Sequence record: OR992644.1
DNA from: Escherichia phage EP-B-K_E2
Direction: 5' to 3' (one strand)
DNA length: 43,553 nucleotides
In this document: positions 9,476 through 35,062 of the stretch, piece after piece
How the letters are laid out: each line of letters begins with the position of its first letter
How positions within the stretch are numbered: the stretch's first letter is position 1
Translations under genes and position numbers: made by a program
The notes under the pieces: generated by a model
What the model was told of the DNA's origin: nothing
What the model saw: only the letters and a program-made list of their open reading frames with translations
Databases searched by the model: none

Positions 9476-9691
9476 ATGCAACCATCTGAACTAGGCATCC
9501 GTGTAGAACAACGCCGCAAAGAACTTGGAATCTCCCAGCGCCGTCTGGCTGTACTAACCGGCGTTTCCCAGGGTGCAATTAACCAGCTGGCCCTTGGGGT
9601 AACTCAGGATGTCCGCCCGGCAACGCTGTTTAAACTGGCGGAAGTGCTGCAAGTAGACGCCAAGTGGCTGGCGTTCGGTGAAGGGGCTTAA
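9476..9691 (+). CDS. XRE-family helix-turn-helix transcriptional regulator (Cro/CI-like)
   Basis: ISQRRLAVLTGVSQGAINQL HTH; SD taaggag 8 nt upstream; divergent from early promoter. Confidence 0.75.
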   Translation: MQPSELGIRVEQRRKELGISQRRLAVLTGVSQGAINQLALGVTQDVRPATLFKLAEVLQVDAKWLAFGEGA

Positions 9692-22507: not shown

Positions 22508-23983
22508 ATGTTAACTATGAACGGTCAGAATCAGGGTGTTAAGACAAAACACCGGGAATGGCTGCATCACTTTAGTAAATGGCAGAAGGTCCGCCACGCT
22601 CTGGAAGGCGACCTTATCCGCTATCTTCGCAACGTCGGGAAGAACGAACCTGACCCAACGTACGCGGCCCAACGGCAAGAAGAATATGAGAACGGTGCTA
22701 TCTGCTACAACTTCACCAAGCGTACTCTGGCGGGAATGGTCGGTTCAGTGATGCGCAAAGACCCTGAGCAGATTATTCCGCCTGAACTGGAATACCTGTT
22801 ACGCAATGCTGATGGTTCTGGTGTTGGCCTGTGGCAGCACGCGCAGGACACGCTGATGGAGATTGACTCAGTAGGCCGTGGTGGGTTGCTGGTTGATGCC
22901 CCAGAGACAGCTGCGGCAACGGCGGCAGAGCAGAACGCAGGATTATTAAACCCGGTCATCGCATTCTACACCGCGGAGAACATCATCAACTGGCGACTGA
23001 CCCGCATCGGTTCCGTTAACCGCGTGACTATGGTCGTGTTGCGGGAGGTATGGGAATACTCGGAACCGGGCGCAGAGTTCGAAACAAAGTTCGGGGAGCA
23101 ATACCGAGTCCTTGACCTGATTGACGGTCGCTACCGCCAGCGCATTTACCGCTTCGATGCCGAAGGTGGCGCACAGGATGAAGTAATCGAAATATTCCCG
23201 GAACTAGGCGAACAGTTGCGCGGAAAAATCCCGTTCACGTTCATTGGCGCAAGCAACAACGATGCGACCATCGACGATGCGCCTTTGCTGCCGTTGGCTG
23301 AGCTTAATATCGGGCATTTCCGCAACAGTGCAGACAATGAGGAGTCCAGCTTCGTTGTAGGCCAGCCCACGCTGTTCATCGCCCCTGGTGAGAACATGAG
23401 CATGGAGCAGTGGAAAGAAGCCAACCCGCACGGCGTGCGCATGGGGTCGCGCTCGGGCCATAACATCGGTTACGGCGGCAATGCGTTTCTGGTTCAGGCG
23501 GGAGAGAACAACCTCGCCAAACAGAACATGCTGGATAAAGAGAATCAGGCCATCCAGATTGGCGCGCAGCTTATCACCCCGACGCAGCAAATCACCGCGG
23601 AATCGGCCCGTCTGCAACGTGGAGCGGATACGTCTGTTATGGCGACAATTGCCCGTAACGTAAGCATGGCGTACACCGATGCGTTGCGCTGGGTGGCGGC
23701 GATGCTAGGGTTGCGCGAAGACACAGAGATTGAATTCAAGCTGAATATGGAGTTCTTCCTGCAACCGATGACCGCCCAGGACCGTGCTCAGTGGATGGCC
23801 GATATTAACGCGGGCCTGTTACCGGCTACTGCCTACTACGCGGCATTGCGCAAGGCTGGGGTGACTGACTGGACCGACGAGGACATTCAGAACGCTATCG
23901 AGGATGCACCTCTGCCGTTGGTTACACAGACTACCGGGGAGATTCCGTCTACAGCGCAGCAGGATGAAGAGGCGAAGCAATGA
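22508..23983 (+). CDS. portal protein
   Basis: 491 aa, position between large terminase and head morphogenesis gene. Confidence 0.7.
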   Translation: MLTMNGQNQGVKTKHREWLHHFSKWQKVRHALEGDLIRYLRNVGKNEPDPTYAAQRQEEYENGAICYNFTKRTLAGMVGSVMRKDPEQIIPPELEYLLRNADGSGVGLWQHAQDTLMEIDSVGRGGLLVDAPETAAATAAEQNAGLLNPVIAFYTAENIINWRLTRIGSVNRVTMVVLREVWEYSEPGAEFETKFGEQYRVLDLIDGRYRQRIYRFDAEGGAQDEVIEIFPELGEQLRGKIPFTFIGASNNDATIDDAPLLPLAELNIGHFRNSADNEESSFVVGQPTLFIAPGENMSMEQWKEANPHGVRMGSRSGHNIGYGGNAFLVQAGENNLAKQNMLDKENQAIQIGAQLITPTQQITAESARLQRGADTSVMATIARNVSMAYTDALRWVAAMLGLREDTEIEFKLNMEFFLQPMTAQDRAQWMADINAGLLPATAYYAALRKAGVTDWTDEDIQNAIEDAPLPLVTQTTGEIPSTAQQDEEAKQ

Positions 23984-25035
23984 GCCAGCTATCACAGATG
24001 ATTATCAGCCATCAAATATGGCTACAGAGACTCGGAACGCAAACAGCGTCGCTGTCCATCCCCTTCGTCAATAAGATGCGGGCTGAGGTGCGCGACGCGG
24101 TGCTTAAGTTCGGTGACGACGCGCGAACAGTGAAGAAGCTGAATAAAATGCTGGCAAGCCTGGATGGCGTGCTGGACGACGTCACCGGAGACTGGAAGAG
24201 CACGATAGAGAAGAGCCTGCGCGAGATTGCCGACTACGAGAATAAGTGGTTTATCCATACGTTGGAGGCCAACACGAAGCCGAAAACGTTCATTACTGGA
24301 CCTACGGCAGAAGAACTGTGGTCGCGTATCAAGTTCGCACCACTGGCGCTGGGTAACGCACCTGTTGGCGTTATGGACCTGATGTCCGGTTGGGCGCAGA
24401 CTGAGCGTAACCGCCTTGTGCGTGGCGTACAGACCGGCTTTGTGCAGGGACAGACAACCCGCCAGATTGTCTCTGCCGTTGCGGGCCCTGGCGGCCTGGC
24501 TGATATCTCTGAGCGCAACGTAATGACGGTAGTCCGAACAGCAGTGAGCCACGTATCGAACACGGCGCGAGATTCTGTGTACGTCAGCAACAGCGATATT
24601 GTGCGCAAATATCAGTGGGTATCTACGCTCGACAGCCGCACTTCGACTGTATGTAAGTCGCGCGACGGCCAGAAATATGACGTAGGTAGAGGGCCTATGC
24701 CCCCCGCACACCCAAACTGTCGCAGTACCACTATCCCAGTAATCGAAGATGACTTCCTGGACTTTCTCGACGAGGGGGCTAAGCGGGCGGCTAAGGGTGC
24801 AGACGGGGGTACTCAGGTAAGCGCAGACACCACCTATTACGAGTTCCTGAAACAACAACCGGCGTGGTTTCAGGACCAGGCGCTCGGCCCGGTGCGCGGT
24901 AAGATTTTCCGTAACAGCGGTATATCGCCGGAAGAGTTTCGCGTAATATCTGTAGATGGTTTCGGGAATCCGCTCACGCTTAAGCAGATGGCGGAACTCG
25001 ATAAACGTGTTGCCGATTATCTGAAAGGGGAATAA
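23980..25035 (+). CDS. head morphogenesis / minor capsid protein (SPP1 gp7 / Mu F-like)
   Basis: 351 aa directly after portal with overlapping stop/start. Confidence 0.6.
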   Translation: MSQLSQMIISHQIWLQRLGTQTASLSIPFVNKMRAEVRDAVLKFGDDARTVKKLNKMLASLDGVLDDVTGDWKSTIEKSLREIADYENKWFIHTLEANTKPKTFITGPTAEELWSRIKFAPLALGNAPVGVMDLMSGWAQTERNRLVRGVQTGFVQGQTTRQIVSAVAGPGGLADISERNVMTVVRTAVSHVSNTARDSVYVSNSDIVRKYQWVSTLDSRTSTVCKSRDGQKYDVGRGPMPPAHPNCRSTTIPVIEDDFLDFLDEGAKRAAKGADGGTQVSADTTYYEFLKQQPAWFQDQALGPVRGKIFRNSGISPEEFRVISVDGFGNPLTLKQMAELDKRVADYLKGE

Positions 25036-25496
25036 TGATGGGCTTTTTCAAAGTAACTGATGTGCCGTCGCGTCGCGTAGTCCAGTACGCCCGTGTGTCT
25101 GGCTCCGGCGAGAACGTGGTATTTATTGAGGACGAAAGTGTACTTGGTACACCTGTAGACGACATGCCGTTTGCCGATAAAACAGGCATTGCGCTGCCAG
25201 CGGCGGGTATGCTTTACGAGATTCCGTATCTGGCTGATGCGGGTGATGTGTATTTCTCTGTGCAACCGAAAGACGCTGAACTTGCGGACGGCAGCGCAAA
25301 TATCACTGTCGAAGTTAAGGCGGGCAAAGCTCCGTATTCACTTACCTGGTACAAGGACGGTAAGGAAGTGGTGAACGCCCCCGAGGAGGCTATGTCTCTG
25401 AGGGTTAACGCGGTCGGTGAATACTTCGTTAAAGTCGCCGATGCCGACGGCGTAGAGGCGGTAAGCAAAGCGGCGAAGGTTACTAAGCCAGAATGA
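25035..25496 (+). CDS. Ig-like domain protein (possible capsid decoration)
   Basis: C-terminal YSLTWYKDGKEV Ig-like strand motif shared with 29159 product. Confidence 0.45.
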   Translation: MMGFFKVTDVPSRRVVQYARVSGSGENVVFIEDESVLGTPVDDMPFADKTGIALPAAGMLYEIPYLADAGDVYFSVQPKDAELADGSANITVEVKAGKAPYSLTWYKDGKEVVNAPEEAMSLRVNAVGEYFVKVADADGVEAVSKAAKVTKPE

Positions 25497-25500
25497 TAGA

Positions 25501-25529
25501 AGGCCCTGAAAGGGCCTTATTTTTTTTTA
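25501..25529 (+). terminator. rho-independent terminator
   Basis: aggccct-gaa-agggcct followed by 9 T. Confidence 0.7.
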
Positions 25530-25808
25530 TACAAATACGAATCCATCGCTGGTAGAGGTGTATCGGGTGGCGCCGTTTTTCGTTTCAGGCCAACAGATAT
25601 ATGAGCGACCATGATACTCTATCCACCAAAGTTCTACATCGGCACCTTCATTAGGTCGCGTCAACCACCCGTGGTGCAGCCAATACTTGCGCCCTATTTT
25701 AAATATGCCTTCTTCGCCTGAAGGCCTGCAACAGGCGACGCACTCTACTTGAATACCATCAACCTGCACACATGTCATATGTAAATTACTGTTTGAGTAT
25801 TTAGCCAT
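25527..25808 (-). CDS. reverse-oriented orphan gene, Cys-rich hypothetical protein
   Basis: 93-aa ORF with own promoter (25844-25872) and SD aaggaa; opposite to flanking structural genes. Confidence 0.55.
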   Translation of the reverse strand: MAKYSNSNLHMTCVQVDGIQVECVACCRPSGEEGIFKIGRKYWLHHGWLTRPNEGADVELWWIEYHGRSYICWPETKNGATRYTSTSDGFVFV

Positions 25809-25843
25809 TTCTAAATTCCTTATCTCTCGTTTCGATGTAATGA

Positions 25844-25872
25844 ATAGTACCCTATTATGCTGGTGTGTGCAA
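25844..25872 (-). promoter_or_regulatory. sigma70-like promoter TTGCAC-N17-TACTAT with dyad (minus strand)
   Basis: Near-identical to 12844-12872 element. Confidence 0.6.
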
Positions 25873-25926
25873 ACTATTTATTTACATATTCCAGTTATTC
25901 CGCTCAATTGTAAATGTTGGAATAAA

Positions 25927-25967
25927 CTATTCGAATAGTTGACTTTTCACTAAAAATGTGATAAGCT
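25927..25967 (+). promoter_or_regulatory. palindrome CTATTCGAATAG abutting a TTGACT -35 and extended -10-like TGaTAAGCT
   Basis: Perfect 12-bp palindrome at 25927-25938; promoter-like spacing 17. Confidence 0.45.
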
Positions 25968-26143
25968 CCACCTGAGCTTGTGAAGTATGAACAAGCGACC
26001 GCGGCGCGGGCAGGTAACGGAGCGGGACGTAAGTCATGAGTGTAGTTACGCTGACGCGTTCGGAAGGGCCATACTCTATTGCTTGTGTAAAAAGTAACTG
26101 GTTTACTGAGATTACGCCGTTTCTATGTTTAAATGATAAGGAC

Positions 26144-26171
26144 TAGCGCCCCGCTTTAAGGCGGGGCTTTA
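26144..26171 (+). promoter_or_regulatory. GC-rich hairpin in leader upstream of spanin genes (possible attenuator)
   Basis: gccccgc-tttaag-gcggggc followed by tttactt. Confidence 0.4.
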
Positions 26172-26191: not shown

Positions 26192-26578
26192 ATGAATCTT
26201 AAAGCAACTGTCGTAGCAGGAGCATGTTTCATCATCCTGGCTTACGCGCACGGCATCTACCAGTATCGCAGCGGCTGGAACGAAGGCCGGGTGAATCTCG
26301 TTTCGCAGCAACATCAGAAAGCACAGGCGGAGCTAGCGAAGAAAACACAACGGCAGCAGCAGGATGAATCAAAGGCCGCAGCCGCCGACAACGAAGGCAA
26401 GACGAAATCAGAGGTGATTACCCGTGAAGTCGTTAAGTACATTAAAACGCCTGGCCGCAGCGTGTGCACTTTCGACGATGCTCGCGTCCTGCTCAAGTCC
26501 CGCGCCGTCGCCAACGCCAATTCCATCCCCGGATACGACAATGATGCAGCCTCCGTGCAAACTGGCGGCGCCAAGTAG
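26192..26578 (+). CDS. i-spanin (Rz-like)
   Basis: N-terminal TM helix, Gln/Ala/Lys-rich periplasmic region, overlapping lipoprotein gene in +1 frame. Confidence 0.6.
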   Translation: MNLKATVVAGACFIILAYAHGIYQYRSGWNEGRVNLVSQQHQKAQAELAKKTQRQQQDESKAAAADNEGKTKSEVITREVVKYIKTPGRSVCTFDDARVLLKSRAVANANSIPGYDNDAASVQTGGAK

Positions 26579-26690
26579 CGACGCCGACGAGGATTTGGCT
26601 ATCGACGTTCAGAACGCCGAATGTGCACGGCAACTGAGACTGAAAGTGTTCATGCTGCAGGACTGGGTACGGAATGTGATGGCGGAATAA
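26424..26690 (+). CDS. o-spanin (Rz1-like outer-membrane lipoprotein), GTG start
   Basis: Signal peptide with lipobox LASC, Pro-rich mature region, overlapped architecture with i-spanin. Confidence 0.6.
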   Translation: MKSLSTLKRLAAACALSTMLASCSSPAPSPTPIPSPDTTMMQPPCKLAAPSSDADEDLAIDVQNAECARQLRLKVFMLQDWVRNVMAE

Positions 26691-26691
26691 G

Positions 26692-26715
26692 AAAAGCCCC
26701 TTATGGGGCTTTGTT
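26692..26715. terminator. bidirectional rho-independent terminator
   Basis: aagcccc-ttat-ggggctt flanked by A-run upstream and T-rich downstream. Confidence 0.55.
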
Positions 26716-26718
26716 GCG

Positions 26719-26883
26719 TTAAAAGTTTCCGTATACAAAATTACGTTTTCTGGTTCTCAATGGGACCCATGCAGGTATGTTATCATTGTGGACGAAATGT
26801 TCCTCATAGAAGAAAACCTTTTTGGTATTGCTGGACCAATGGTCCATTTTTAAAATTCTTCTTGCTTTTGCGTTTCTGGTCAT
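26719..26883 (-). CDS. reverse-oriented small ORF (54 aa, not in ORF track)
   Basis: Strong SD acaggaggg 7 nt upstream of ATG; convergent with spanins; shares bidirectional terminator. Confidence 0.4.
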   Translation of the reverse strand: MTRNAKARRILKMDHWSSNTKKVFFYEEHFVHNDNIPAWVPLRTRKRNFVYGNF

Positions 26884-26910
26884 TCTTATGCCCTCCTGTT
26901 TAAGTTACCT

Positions 26911-26932
26911 CCTATAATAGCACCCTATTATA
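26911..26932. promoter_or_regulatory. AATAG-N4-CTATT dyad element with TATAAT/TATTAT boxes (strand ambiguous)
   Basis: ctataatagcaccctattatat matches the dyad family at 25844 and 35034. Confidence 0.45.
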
Positions 26933-27033
26933 TTGGTGTCTATAGGGGTGGTTGCCTTCTGATGTGGAATAATTTATTCTTGACATGTAAATCCGGGTGG
27001 CCCGGGTTCCAACGTCCAGGGGACATACTGACT

Positions 27034-33195: not shown

Positions 33196-33226
33196 ACTAA
33201 GGCCCCTTTCGGGGCCTTTTTTTTCT
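33196..33226. terminator. bidirectional rho-independent terminator
   Basis: aaggcccc-tttc-ggggcctt with A-run upstream and 8 T downstream. Confidence 0.7.
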
Positions 33227-33456
33227 TACTCGTCAATATTGCTTCGATACTCCCGTAACTTCTCCAGACTTTCAATTGCTTCCGCTAAGTCTGTTCCGGT
33301 GTCCTTGTGCCCGCGCAAGCCCATACACAATAGCTTCTTCAATGCATGCTGTAACGCCGGGTCGCGGATGTCGAAGGCGCGTAGCACATCATAAACGTCT
33401 ACTGTCATAGTGCTGCCGTGAGTGTTTGTCATGGTGCGGTTGTATTTATTTGTCAC
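33226..33456 (-). CDS. DUF3310-like small protein
   Basis: DVYDVLRAF...ALKKLLCMGLRGHKD...LAEAIESLEKL resembles DUF3310 signature. Confidence 0.45.
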   Translation of the reverse strand: MTNKYNRTMTNTHGSTMTVDVYDVLRAFDIRDPALQHALKKLLCMGLRGHKDTGTDLAEAIESLEKLREYRSNIDE

Positions 33457-33642
33457 TGTTAACTCTCTTAAATCGGGCTATGCCTGACTCGTTAATGTTG
33501 CCTATTTCAAAGAAGCTGCGATATTTAGGCTAATACATTCTTACGTCGCCATTCTCTAGGGTTATTCCTTCATATACAGCACCTACTTAGAACCCATTTT
33601 TCTCTGCGTACGGACTCACATCGGTGCATTCATACATGTCTC

Positions 33643-34773
33643 TCATCCCAGCATCTCCGGTGAAATAGTTAAACGTGCAACCTCGCCATATTCGGCGCTA
33701 TAAGTAATTACATTTGCACTACGGCCCGACATCCACCCTCCGCGGGAAGCATATGCATCTTTCGCCGCCAGGGTTCGGTGCTGCTCGACAATCATGTTAC
33801 GGCTTTCTACGATTTTCTGATGGTGCAGGTGGCCTACGTGGGCGTAGCTGTACTCGCTTTCGCCAAACGCTTTGCGGAACTTAGCTATCATAATTGGTTC
33901 GACCACCTCAAACCGACATTTATGGCCATGTGTAAAGAACAGAGTCGTTTTGCCGTGTTGTACCATCTTGTACACATCCGGCGACGTATCGACGAACACA
34001 CGAGGCTCATTGTCGTACAGCGTACTGAACATCTCAGCCAGCCAAATCATTCCGCTTTCGTCGTGGTTCCCTTGCACTATAAGCAAACGAACATTTCTAT
34101 GCTTAACAAGTGCCATATCTACAACACGGCGTACCATACGAATCATGTAGCGGACCAGTTTCTGATAGCGCGTGTCAGCGTCAAGGACATGACCACTAGT
34201 TGGCGTAACGGCATCCAGGCTATCGAAGTGCGCGAAGTCGCCTAGCAGGTTAATAACTCCAGTTCCTGCATCCGGTGCTTTCTGAAACGCCGCGTCGAAC
34301 CAGCGGGAGAACAGGTCTTCCGCAATCTTCATGTCCCAGTCGTCGCCGCTCTCGTCGGCCCAGGCCAGCATACCGAGATGAAAATCAGATACCGTGTAAA
34401 GATTGAGTAGCTTGTCGTCGCGTTTGGCGCGTGCTGCTTTAACAGGGGCGACTGGCGTAATCTCTGATTTCATTCCTTCGATTACGGCTTTCATCAACTC
34501 GACCTGACGTTCGGCATCGGTGTCTGTCTTAACCCATTGCAACTTAGTGTTGCCGAACTCGTCCACCAGTGACGACGTTCCTTTAATCTTGTAGCCGTCT
34601 GGTACTAGATGGCTAACGTCACGCCCGTGGCCTACGCCTTTTTTCGCCAGCTTCGCTTTACGGATACGAATAACGCGGTCTGAGATGCCGTATTTACGGG
34701 CGATATCTATATTCTTCATCCCGGCGTTCAATTCTTCCTGTAACTGTTCGTCGGTTATTTTCTTCTGGGCCAT
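33643..34773 (-). CDS. HTH domain fused to calcineurin-like metallophosphoesterase
   Basis: N-terminal HTH IDIARKYGISDRVIRIRKAKL; motifs SDFHLG, GDFAHFD, VQGNHDE, THGH, VGHLHH; start set to ATG with SD gaggaag. Confidence 0.7.
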   Translation of the reverse strand: MAQKKITDEQLQEELNAGMKNIDIARKYGISDRVIRIRKAKLAKKGVGHGRDVSHLVPDGYKIKGTSSLVDEFGNTKLQWVKTDTDAERQVELMKAVIEGMKSEITPVAPVKAARAKRDDKLLNLYTVSDFHLGMLAWADESGDDWDMKIAEDLFSRWFDAAFQKAPDAGTGVINLLGDFAHFDSLDAVTPTSGHVLDADTRYQKLVRYMIRMVRRVVDMALVKHRNVRLLIVQGNHDESGMIWLAEMFSTLYDNEPRVFVDTSPDVYKMVQHGKTTLFFTHGHKCRFEVVEPIMIAKFRKAFGESEYSYAHVGHLHHQKIVESRNMIVEQHRTLAAKDAYASRGGWMSGRSANVITYSAEYGEVARLTISPEMLG

Positions 34774-34811
34774 GCTTACTTCCTCGTGTTTAGGATTTGT
34801 CTTATAGTAGC

Positions 34812-35003
34812 CTACTTCTCTTTCACGTTCGAGTTGCAAGCCCAGATTAAAATAAATACCCACGGCAGCAGAACCCAGCCAAGAAACAGATTAGCCATGA
34901 ATATCGCCAACTTCGCTTTATGGTTACGGAAGTACGCAACCAGGAAAGGCGCGAAATAAGCGAGCAGTGCAAACAGAATTAAGGAAACTGGTAAACTGGA
35001 CAT
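34812..35003 (-). CDS. small membrane protein (alternative start 35018)
   Basis: Two hydrophobic helices; SD aagggg 6 nt before second ATG; directly downstream of promoter 35034-35062. Confidence 0.5.
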   Translation of the reverse strand: MSSLPVSLILFALLAYFAPFLVAYFRNHKAKLAIFMANLFLGWVLLPWVFILIWACNSNVKEK

Positions 35004-35033
35004 TTTAAACCCCTTCATTGTTGGTGTAAGTGA

Positions 35034-35062
35034 ATAGTACCCTATTATATTGGGGTACGCAA
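35034..35062 (-). promoter_or_regulatory. sigma70-like promoter TTGCGT-N17-TACTAT with dyad (minus strand)
   Basis: Near-identical to 12844-12872 and 25844-25872 elements. Confidence 0.6.

What the first reader, a model, noticed from the sequence alone, without database searches (positions are those of the whole stretch)
25501..25872. Reverse-oriented orphan gene with its own promoter inside the head module
A 93-aa Cys-containing protein (25527-25808, minus strand) with no motif I recognise is inserted between the Ig-like gene and the spanin region. It has a private promoter of the conserved TTGCAC-N17-TACTAT class (25844-25872) and an SD (aaggaa). It is transcribed against the flow of the structural genes. 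Small early-promoter-driven orphans in this configuration are frequent carriers of anti-defence or host-takeover functions.
Basis: partly seen in the sequence, partly recalled or inferred. Interest (0 to 1): 0.6.

Follow-up and report, generated by a model that had tools for sequence, protein, structure and literature searches.

The report
Mobile accessory gene cassette, Gp54-like fold
A real but optional 93-residue phage gene, carried with its own promoter and terminator as a swappable cassette inside the head genes of an E. coli Kagunavirus, is predicted to fold like Gp54 of phage Bas11, a small protein that a bacterial immune sensor recognises; what it does is still unknown.

Summary
ORF 25527-25808 (-), its SD, and a TTGCAC-N17-TACTAT promoter (25844-25872) are exactly as described. 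The ORF is a real gene: dN/dS is 0.15-0.25, and ~40%-identical homologues exist in Wifcevirus myophages.

It is not a lone oddity. It is one cargo among about 45 alternative cargo-ORF clusters (some probably spurious short ORFs) in two hot-spot slots of Kagunavirus head modules, portal|MuF and Hoc|spanin. Nearly every filled slot is bracketed by the same GC-rich hairpin and the same ~45-nt promoter/leader block. This gene family sits in either slot in different lineages, with at least two switches. That resembles recombination at shared regulatory bookends, as with T4 PeSL cassettes.

"Early" timing and an anti-defence role remain unproven inferences.

The parts
25500..25883 (.). Whole mobile cassette (hairpin + reverse ORF + leader + promoter), defined by homology to the same cassette sitting in a different slot (portal|MuF) in phages M01, CR01 and 22664BS2
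   Evidence: blastn match of window 25500-25883 at 83-94% identity, with unrelated flanks. Boundaries fall in the hairpin and just upstream of the -35.
25500..25529 (.). GC-rich hairpin AAGGCCCTGAAAGGGCCTT plus T9 run. It is the terminator of the Hoc-like gene on the + strand and a weaker terminator-like hairpin for the reverse ORF on the - strand. It forms the left 'bookend' of the cassette.
   Evidence: Terminator scan hit at 25500-25518. RNA fold gives -13.2 kcal/mol (+ strand, z -3.05) and -12.5 kcal/mol (- strand, z -2.2). A hairpin of the same type follows the upstream gene in nearly every filled slot examined.
25527..25808 (-). CDS of the 93-aa accessory protein. The predicted fold is a small beta-barrel like Gp54 of phage Bas11. 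By eye there is no signal peptide or TM segment.
25809..25843 (-). 5' leader/RBS module (TCATTACATCGAAACGAGAGATAAGGAATTTAGAA), including the SD AAGGAA at 25816-25821. The module is shared with unrelated cargos in other phages.
   Evidence: Sequence. The same leader sits in front of different cargo ORFs in L013 and L018.
25844..25872 (-). Sigma-70-like promoter TTGCAC-N17-TACTAT with a conserved spacer (..ATAATAGGG). It forms the right 'bookend'. It is one of 8 copies of the block in the window.
   Evidence: It equals the PHIRE 'phage promoter' consensus reported for fBC-Eco01. It is present on the minus strand of most filled slots.
25873..25990 (.). Slot-specific flank of the Hoc|spanin intergenic region. 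It is conserved in nearly all Kagunaviruses whatever the cargo.
   Evidence: blastn finds window ~25806-25990 in about 180 records at 88-97% identity. The flank TAACTGGAATAnGTAAATAAATAG is shared by all Hoc-slot cassettes.

Best explanation
The feature is a self-contained accessory-gene cassette in a virulent E. coli Kagunavirus. It consists of promoter, leader/RBS, a 93-aa ORF and a hairpin, and it points against the late head operon.

Shown by comparison:
- Kagunavirus head modules have at least two insertion slots, portal|MuF and Hoc|spanin. Each is either empty or filled by a reverse-oriented cargo.
- A filled slot is nearly always bracketed by the same hairpin (AAGGCCCC-loop-GGGGCCTT) and the same ~45-nt promoter block.
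- This gene family occupies either slot in different lineages.

Inferred: cargos are exchanged between slots and genomes by homologous recombination within these conserved regulatory bookends, as described for PeSL cassettes of T4-like phages.

The product is a real, selectively maintained, cytoplasmic protein. Its predicted fold is the rare six-stranded beta-barrel of Gp54 from phage Bas11.

[quoted passage not shown] It could itself be recognised by CapRel-type immune sensors. It is transcribed by host RNA polymerase independently of the structural operon; the timing is unknown.
For: Gene reality:
- ORF at the stated coordinates.
- dN/dS 0.15-0.25 at dS 0.5-0.7.
- 39-42% identical homologues in Wifcevirus.
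- Among 1.84 billion cluster representatives, only two clusters of small homologues were found.

Accessory status:
- Absent from 39 of 39 IMG/VR relatives.
- Present in 5 of the 24 phage records matched by tblastn as Kagunavirus-type copies; the rest are Wifcevirus.
- Gp54 itself is non-essential (PMC11578894).

Slots and bookends:
- Empty slots are ~72 bp and ~345 bp; filled slots hold 46 clusters of minus-strand ORFs of at least 30 aa across 45 loci, some probably spurious.
- Recognisable cargos include an N6_N4 DNA methylase, a Vut_1 transporter and a KilA-N protein.
- The hairpin, promoter block and two leader modules are shared by unrelated cargos and by both slots.

Slot census for this family:
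- Hoc|spanin: window, L048, L051.
- portal|MuF: L001, L002, L044-46, L049, L050.
- The Hoc-slot alleles are not sister in the tree.

Promoter: 8 copies against 0.03 expected.

Fold:
- AF2 pLDDT 82, pTM 0.73, with all five models between 78.7 and 82.
- GIFKIG (34-39) lies in the long loop before the strand at 41-49, as GIFKKG (19-24) does in Gp54's beta1-beta2 loop. G24 is a CapRel contact and escape site.
Against: - Sequence-level homology to Gp54 is not supported. There is no PF25180 hit even at E<=10, no BLASTP alignment, hhalign P = 0.21, and the Gp54 HMM scores about 0 bits.
- The fold match rests on a predicted model built from only 15 sequences in two clades. Foldseek did not recover it in the PDB or in BFVD.
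- The only significant sequence similarity is to PLL-lectin propeller blades, which this explanation does not account for.
- Promoter and terminator function, timing of expression, any binding partner and any phenotype are untested.
- The minus-strand terminator lacks a clean U-tract in this window.
- The function of Gp54 itself is unknown, so the analogy does not supply a mechanism.
Confidence: 0.55

Rival explanations
1. The protein is a fragment-sized relative of PLL/PHL-type lectin beta-propellers. It carries one blade-like unit that might oligomerise into a propeller and bind a sugar or another ligand.
For: - A profile search of 1.84 billion representatives hit multi-blade PLL-like proteins (E 4e-9 to 4e-4), and each blade matched the same query segment, residues ~22-66.
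- One of these hits is 1.6e-112 to the PLL2 structure 6rfz.
- A blade HMM built independently of the ORF hits every family member in the same register.
- hhalign gives 86% probability, P 5e-6, over 24 columns. This compares with at most 1.1% for 30 column-shuffled controls and 0.7% for the reversed profile.
- The only PDB sequence hit of the family profile is PLL3, at 3e-4.
Against: - Each blade contributes only 6-15 bits, so the whole-protein E-values are inflated by repeat number. The top hit, P0006, looks like a junk tandem-repeat translation.
- Only about 24 columns align.
- By eye there is no signal peptide, whereas the PLL-like repeats found here are attached to secreted-type hydrolases.
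- 93 aa cannot make a propeller alone.
Confidence: 0.12
2. The cassette carries a cargo that excludes competing phages (superinfection exclusion) or changes host physiology in some other way, rather than countering host defence.
For: - The same promoter block drives a 68-aa protein matching the PHROG 'immunity to superinfection' (phrog_1039, 4.7e-23) in the tail-module reverse unit.
- Other slot cargos include a predicted lipoprotein and small membrane peptides. This reading is by eye from the sequences.
Against: - The 93-aa protein has no membrane segment or lipobox (read directly from the sequence). Classical exclusion proteins of this size class act at the envelope.
- Its only structural neighbour is a cytoplasmic protein sensed by a cytoplasmic immunity protein.
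Confidence: 0.15
3. The reverse unit matters mainly as a transcription element, through antisense transcription or insulation of the late operon, or it is a selfish passenger. On this view the ORF has little function for the phage.
For: - The promoter fires into the 3' end of the Hoc gene across a hairpin that is a weak terminator on the minus strand in this window.
- The bookends are better conserved than any cargo.
- Many relatives do without any cargo in these slots.
Against: - There is clear purifying selection on the protein (dN/dS 0.15-0.25).
- The protein is conserved at ~40% identity in Wifcevirus, which shares no flanking DNA or promoter block.
Confidence: 0.06
4. It is a structural or assembly protein of the head, as its position might suggest.
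For: Its location lies between head genes.
Against: - Its orientation is opposite to the head genes, and it has a private non-late-type promoter.
- It is absent from most relatives, which have otherwise near-identical head genes.
- It occupies different slots in different phages.
- In Wifcevirus it lies in a long array of small non-structural ORFs.
Confidence: 0.03

Closest known systems
Gp54 of Escherichia phage Bas11 (PDB 9axb; Pfam PF25180 'Phage antiviral trigger protein Gp54'; Zhang et al., Nature 2024, PMC11578894)
   Same: - Both are small, non-structural coliphage proteins annotated only as hypothetical. Gp54 was shown to be dispensable; this gene is simply absent from most relatives.
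- Both have a G-I-F-K-x-G motif in the long loop before the second barrel strand.
   Different: - There is no detectable sequence homology.
- This protein is 93 aa against 66 aa, with an N-terminal extension and a longer loop at residues 50-57.
- It occurs in different phage groups: Kagunavirus and Wifcevirus, against Drexlerviridae for Gp54.
- Gp54 lies in a run of small same-strand genes, not in a reverse cassette inside the head operon.
- CapRel activation is untested here. Even close Gp54 homologues fail to trigger CapRelSJ46.
PeSL (promoter-early stem-loop) mobile regulatory cassettes of T4-like phages (Arbiol et al. 2010, PMC2839356; Comeau et al. 2014, PMC4122927)
   Same: - Conserved sigma-70-like promoter and stem-loop terminator motifs are repeated around the genome.
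- They bracket non-essential, highly variable small genes.
- Insertions, deletions and replacements between close relatives end in these motifs (abstracts).
   Different: - The phage group and the motif sequences are different (Guernseyvirinae siphoviruses).
- The units here are inserted antisense inside the late structural operon, not in hyperplastic early regions.
- Promoter and terminator activity and mini-circle formation are not demonstrated.
Morons of lambdoid phages
   Same: A single extra gene with its own promoter and terminator is inserted between two adjacent genes of a late operon, and it is present in some relatives and absent in others.
   Different: - Morons are defined in temperate phages and are typically expressed from the prophage.
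- Kagunaviruses are reported to lack lysogeny genes (fBC-Eco01 paper).
- Here the insertion sites are recurrent slots with shared bookends.
PLL/PHL lectins of Photorhabdus (seven-bladed beta-propellers; PDB 5c9o, 6rfz, 6t96, 5mxe)
   Same: A ~24-residue pattern (G..(I/V)F.(I/A)G....L.H.W.T.PN) matches the blade consensus above shuffled controls.
   Different: - There is at most one blade-equivalent, not seven.
- The predicted fold is a barrel, not a propeller.
- The protein appears cytoplasmic.
- No sugar-binding evidence exists.

Membership tests
Gp54 family (Pfam PF25180) | Match to the PF25180 profile at or above its gathering score (27 bits) | tested here: not met
   There is no PF25180 hit for the window protein or its relatives even at E<=10, while Gp54 itself scores 116 bits. 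The Gp54 HMM scores about 0 bits on all 15 family members.
Gp54 family (Pfam PF25180) | Profile-profile similarity to the Gp54 alignment | tested here: not met
   hhalign of A4 against A5 gives probability 0.3%, P 0.21. The best local alignment is only the GIFKxG segment.
Gp54 family (Pfam PF25180) | Small six-stranded beta-barrel of the rare topology seen in 9axb | tested here: met
Gp54 family (Pfam PF25180) | Long beta1-beta2 loop ending in the conserved glycine (G24) that contacts CapRelSJ46 | tested here: inconclusive
Gp54 family (Pfam PF25180) | Direct binding and activation of CapRelSJ46 | not testable with these tools
   This needs co-expression toxicity or ITC, as in PMC11578894. Even close Gp54 homologues do not activate it.
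PeSL-type mobile regulatory cassettes | Conserved sigma-70-like promoter and stem-loop motifs repeated in the genome | tested here: met
   The promoter block has 8 copies against 0.03 expected. GGCCC-loop-GGGCC hairpins have 5 copies against 0.13 expected. Both motifs bracket the filled slots in about 45 loci.
PeSL-type mobile regulatory cassettes | Motifs flank non-essential variable genes, and indels or replacements between relatives end in the motifs | tested here: met
   Slots are empty or filled, with 46 cargo-ORF clusters. Homology between the same cargo in two slots stops at the hairpin and at the -35.
PeSL-type mobile regulatory cassettes | Demonstrated promoter and terminator activity, and mini-circle formation | not testable with these tools
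   This needs reporter assays and PCR across circle junctions.
PeSL-type mobile regulatory cassettes | Element of T4-like myovirus hyperplastic regions, with the PeSL consensus sequence | tested here: not met
   The host genome is a Kagunavirus (Guernseyvirinae siphovirus). The units sit inside the structural operon. It therefore works like a PeSL but is not a member.
Moron (lambdoid late-operon insertion) | Own promoter and terminator; inserted between adjacent late genes; presence/absence polymorphism | tested here: met
   The promoter and terminator are identified by consensus and conservation only.
Moron (lambdoid late-operon insertion) | Carried by a temperate phage and expressed from the prophage | not tested
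   Lysogeny genes were not searched for here. The fBC-Eco01 paper reports none in a close relative.
PLL/PHL lectin beta-propellers | Tandem array of about seven W-motif blades forming a propeller | tested here: not met
PLL/PHL lectin beta-propellers | Blade sequence motif | tested here: inconclusive
   hhalign gives 86%, P 5e-6, over 24 columns, and controls reach at most 1.1%. The match is short, and database E-values are inflated by repeats.

The most novel reading that the evidence does not exclude
Gp54-like beta-barrels may form a broad superfamily of coliphage accessory proteins that has diverged beyond sequence recognition. On this reading they are shuffled between genomes and between slots by promoter/hairpin bookends, and they act at the phage-immunity interface. 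The 93-aa protein would inhibit a host defence or host factor and could in turn be a direct trigger for CapRel-type sensors. Its PLL-blade-like hairpin (residues 31-54) would be the binding surface.
Probability: 0.25. Interest if true: 0.65.

Novelty: new variant of a known kind. Interest (0 to 1): 0.45.

Why it matters
If the fold assignment is right, the rare Gp54 barrel is not confined to Drexlerviridae. Until now it was known only as a curiosity that trips the CapRelSJ46 immune sensor. Finding it in unrelated sipho- and myophages gives a second, very divergent family in which to search for its native function.

The slot-and-bookend architecture also gives a practical map of where Kagunaviruses keep exchangeable accessory genes. 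These phages are widely isolated for therapy against E. coli K1 and UPEC strains. Known cargos include DNA methylases, a putative transporter and many unknown proteins. The slots therefore point to candidate host-range and counter-defence determinants, and they are natural sites for engineering payloads.

Tried and rejected
- Pfam, PHROGs and NCBIfam scans of the ORF found nothing.
- A PDB sequence search with the shallow family profile gave only chance uL3 hits at E>1.
- The first AF2 run on 6 near-identical sequences gave pLDDT 50 and was discarded.
- Foldseek against the PDB and BFVD found nothing with E<0.09. The afdb50 library was unavailable.
- BLASTP, hhalign and HMM comparisons with Gp54 were not significant.
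- The zinc-finger or Cys-rich idea was rejected, because only C23 and C72 are conserved.
- The PLL-propeller idea was examined at length and downgraded. The reasons are repeat-inflated E-values, a spurious tandem-repeat top hit, a 24-column alignment and a non-propeller model.
- I tried to fix the temporal class of the promoter from the K1B4 RNA-seq paper. The result was contradictory (HTH gene early, superinfection-immunity gene late), and my gene mapping rests on annotation only.
- The first literature query was too loose and returned irrelevant papers.
- The Wifcevirus homologue shares no promoter block or flanking DNA with the Kagunavirus cassette, so the route of transfer between the two phage groups is unknown.

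Full report
**What is there**

The window is an E. coli Kagunavirus (Guernseyvirinae siphovirus). A 1.8-kb query around the feature matches 367 phage records, mostly Escherichia Kagunavirus and Salmonella relatives, at 90-95% identity.

The ORF at 25527..25808 on the minus strand is 93 aa, with an ATG start and a TAA stop. Its neighbours are:
- portal, 22508-23983;
- a Mu-F-like head morphogenesis protein, 23980-25035 (PF04233);
- a Hoc-like Ig decoration protein, 25035-25496 (phrog_3945);
- i- and o-spanins, 26192-26690.

On the minus strand the sequence reads TTGCAC (25872-25867), a 17-nt spacer, TACTAT (25849-25844), a 35-nt leader carrying AAGGAA (25821-25816), and then the ATG.

**Is the promoter more than chance?**

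- TTGCAC-N16-18-TACTAT occurs three times exactly, against 0.02 expected.
- Aligning the copies shows a much longer conserved block, TTGCACAC..ATAATAGGnTACTATTCAyT, each followed after 25-35 nt by an SD and a start codon.
- The core ATAATAGGGTACTATTCA, allowing up to 3 mismatches, occurs 8 times against 0.03 expected.
- This block is the reverse complement of the 'phage promoter' consensus (tgAATAGTa-ccTATTat-T, seven copies) that PHIRE found in Kagunavirus fBC-Eco01. One of those copies is annotated at the equivalent position.

The other copies in the window precede non-structural genes:
- small unknown ORFs at 12.9 and 14.1 kb;
- a 71-aa XRE-type HTH protein at 9476-9691;
- a reverse-oriented pair in the tail module, consisting of a 68-aa protein matching PHROG 'immunity to superinfection' and then an exonuclease.

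The timing of this promoter class is unresolved. In an RNA-seq study of a related phage, the HTH gene peaks early but the superinfection-immunity gene was classed late. My mapping of those genes to the window rests on gene order and annotation, not on sequence. The label 'early promoter' is therefore unproven.

**Is it a gene?**

Yes.
- tblastn finds it at 77-89% identity in four Kagunavirus-type phages (five records).
- It is at 38-44% identity in 19 Wifcevirus myophage records.
- In Wifcevirus phage Mansfield it sits in a long same-strand array of small ORFs.
- Between divergent Kagunavirus alleles (dS 0.5-0.7), dN/dS is 0.15-0.25.
- A filter-free HMMER scan of 1.84 billion cluster representatives found only two clusters of small homologues, one per phage group.
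- Every public name is 'hypothetical protein'.
- Only C23 and C72 are conserved across both clades, so the cysteine content carries no obvious meaning.

**The cassette and its slots**

In M01, CR01 and 22664BS2 the same gene is not between Hoc and the spanins. It lies between portal and MuF. The DNA homology covers window 25500-25883 only: hairpin, ORF, leader and promoter. The flanks are unrelated.

I compared 39 IMG/VR relatives, several GenBank records and metagenomic contigs. Both the portal|MuF and Hoc|spanin junctions are either empty (about 72 bp and 345 bp) or filled with reverse-oriented cargo. Filled slots nearly always carry a minus-strand copy of the promoter.

The cargos fall into 46 clusters of minus-strand ORFs of at least 30 aa. 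The shortest are probably spurious. Three are recognisable: an N6_N4 DNA methylase, a Vut_1-type transporter and a KilA-N protein.

Nearly every filled slot, whatever its cargo, has this layout:
- the upstream gene's stop codon, followed by the hairpin AAGGCCCC-loop-GGGGCCTT;
- the cargo in reverse orientation;
- one of two recurrent leader/RBS modules;
- the promoter block;
- slot-specific sequence starting right at the -35.

The census for this gene family is:
- Hoc|spanin in the window, in an identical 921-bp contig (L048), and in L051 (84% nt identity);
- portal|MuF in seven other loci.

The two Hoc-slot alleles are not each other's closest relatives. The window groups with the portal-slot M01 type at 95%, and L051 groups with the portal-slot L045 type at 88%. 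The cassette has therefore changed slot at least twice.

Portal-slot promoters always read TTGCAG. The window reads TTGCAC, a variant that in this sample occurs only among Hoc-slot promoters (these read TTGCAC, TTGCAG, TTGCGC or TTGCAT). This is consistent with a crossover inside the promoter block.

The simplest mechanism is homologous recombination between conserved regulatory bookends. That is an inference. It is what was described for PeSL cassettes in T4-like phages.

**What the protein looks like**

Pfam, PHROGs and NCBIfam give nothing. AlphaFold on six near-identical sequences failed, with pLDDT 50. Adding the Wifcevirus clade (15 sequences) gave a consistent all-beta model with pLDDT 82 and pTM 0.73.

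According to the paper that solved it, Gp54 has these properties (PMC11578894):
- It is a 66-aa, non-essential protein of unknown function.
- It forms a six-stranded beta-barrel of a topology 'very rare in nature'.
- It binds the antitoxin domain of the fused toxin-antitoxin CapRelSJ46 and activates it.
- The authors speculate that it may inhibit another defence system.

The structure was released in 2024, which by my recollection post-dates the training data of the AlphaFold2 weights used here. If so, the agreement is not memorisation.

Both proteins carry G-I-F-K-x-G in the long loop before the second strand:
- residues 34-39 here, with G39 invariant;
- residues 19-24 in Gp54, where G24 is a CapRel contact and the G24D mutant escapes.

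At the sequence level the link is not significant:
- no PF25180 hit;
- no BLASTP alignment;
- hhalign P = 0.21;
- HMM scores near zero.

Foldseek missed the match in both the PDB and BFVD. I therefore call this a Gp54-like fold, probably a remote relative, and not a member of the Pfam family.

**An unexplained second signal**

The profile search also hit long proteins with 3-7 matched stretches each. These turned out to be PLL/PHL-type lectin propellers, often fused to secreted hydrolases.
- Each blade matches residues ~25-60 of the ORF profile at only 6-15 bits, so the whole-protein E-values are inflated by repeat number.
- The best such hit, P0006, looks like a junk tandem-repeat translation.
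- A blade profile built without reference to the ORF nevertheless hits all family members in register.
- hhalign gives 86% (P 5e-6) over 24 columns, against at most 1.1% for shuffled or reversed controls.
- PLL3 is the only PDB sequence hit of the family profile.
- Gp54 itself does not share this pattern.

The model is a barrel, not a propeller. I regard this as a real but short hairpin-level similarity of unknown meaning, and I keep an oligomeric lectin-like reading as a minor rival.

**How it most likely works**

Shown:
- It is a selectively maintained protein-coding gene.
- It lies inside a promoter-to-hairpin unit that is optional.
- The unit is interchangeable with many other cargos.
- The unit has moved between two slots.

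Inferred:
- Host RNA polymerase transcribes it from the conserved block, independently of the late operon.
- The hairpin serves as a bidirectional terminator. It folds at -13.2 and -12.5 kcal/mol on the two strands, and it is weaker on the minus strand in this window.
- The product is a cytoplasmic Gp54-like barrel that acts by binding another protein.

A counter-defence or host-takeover role is plausible, given the company it keeps and its one structural relative. I put that specific function at about 0.3.

**Verdict**

The feature is a new variant of known kinds: a moron- or PeSL-like accessory cassette that carries a remote Gp54-like protein. It is moderately interesting, mainly as a lead on the native role of the Gp54 fold and as a map of exchangeable slots in a therapeutically used phage genus.

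Noticed in passing
window 26693-26942 (minus strand): There is a third reverse-oriented mini-cassette between the o-spanin and the scaffold gene. It has a promoter-block variant (TAGACA-N17-TATTAT around ATAATAGGGTGCTATTAT), the 'AACTTAAACAGGAG' leader module, a 54-aa ORF (26883..26719) and the hairpin AAAGCCCCATAAGGGGCTTT.
   Followed up: partly
window 33201-35062: The tail module holds a reverse unit with the same architecture. It has a hairpin GGCCCCTTTCGGGGCC (33201-33216), an exonuclease (33643-34863, phrog_704), a 68-aa protein matching PHROG 'immunity to superinfection' (34812-35018), and the promoter block at 35031-35062.
   Followed up: partly
window 7073, 9386, 9430, 12858, 14069 (+); 25841, 26914, 35031 (-): The promoter block has 8 copies, and its 'spacer' (ATAATAGGG) is as conserved as the hexamers. 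This suggests that something more than sigma-70 -35/-10 recognition is involved, such as a regulator site or an alternative -10. The fBC-Eco01 paper attributes the motif to a phage-encoded RNA polymerase, but I did not see such a gene among the ORFs I annotated.
   Followed up: partly
window 23980-25035, compared with L005-L046: The window's MuF-like gene is a different allele: 54-67% aa identity to most relatives and 99% to L005. It overlaps the portal stop (ATGA), so this lineage has no portal|MuF slot at all. That may be why the cassette sits in the Hoc|spanin slot here.
   Followed up: no
window 26192-26690: The Rz-like i- and o-spanin genes are embedded in the head module, between the Hoc-like gene and the scaffold and capsid genes, away from any endolysin or holin. 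This layout is conserved across the genus.
   Followed up: no
window 25940-25968 (+): Read by eye, a forward sigma-70-like promoter (TTGACT-N17-TAAGCT) lies back-to-back with the cassette promoter. It coincides with 'host promoter1' annotated in fBC-Eco01, and it precedes a conserved 36-aa ORF (25987-26097) and a terminator at 26148-26167.
   Followed up: no
L016 portal|MuF slot; L010, L014 and L015 slots: Some slot cargos look like DNA-modification functions. A 242-aa N6_N4 DNA methylase occurs in both slots. A 244-aa protein sits next to a Vut_1/YhhQ-like transporter; by eye this resembles a 7-deazaguanine (DpdA-type) module, but I did not verify that. These would be consistent with anti-restriction cargo.
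   Followed up: partly
P0006 (468 aa): The top non-family hit of the profile search is a protein made of ~52-aa tandem repeats (..HWLQHGVCTRPNTHSS..). It looks like a translated satellite repeat. It shows how repeat number can inflate whole-sequence E-values for a short motif.
   Followed up: yes
L049 654-1223; record PQ141284.1 (fEg-Eco06): There are further plasticity points in the same module. L049 has an extra 189-aa gene between MuF and Hoc. In fEg-Eco06 the minor head protein is annotated as carrying an inserted intein.
   Followed up: no
L003 3420-3485 (Wifcevirus Mansfield): The Wifcevirus homologue has its own upstream promoter-like sequence (TTGCCT ... TGTATTATA, read by eye), but not the Kagunavirus block or hairpin. 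Only the coding sequence is shared between the two phage groups.
   Followed up: no
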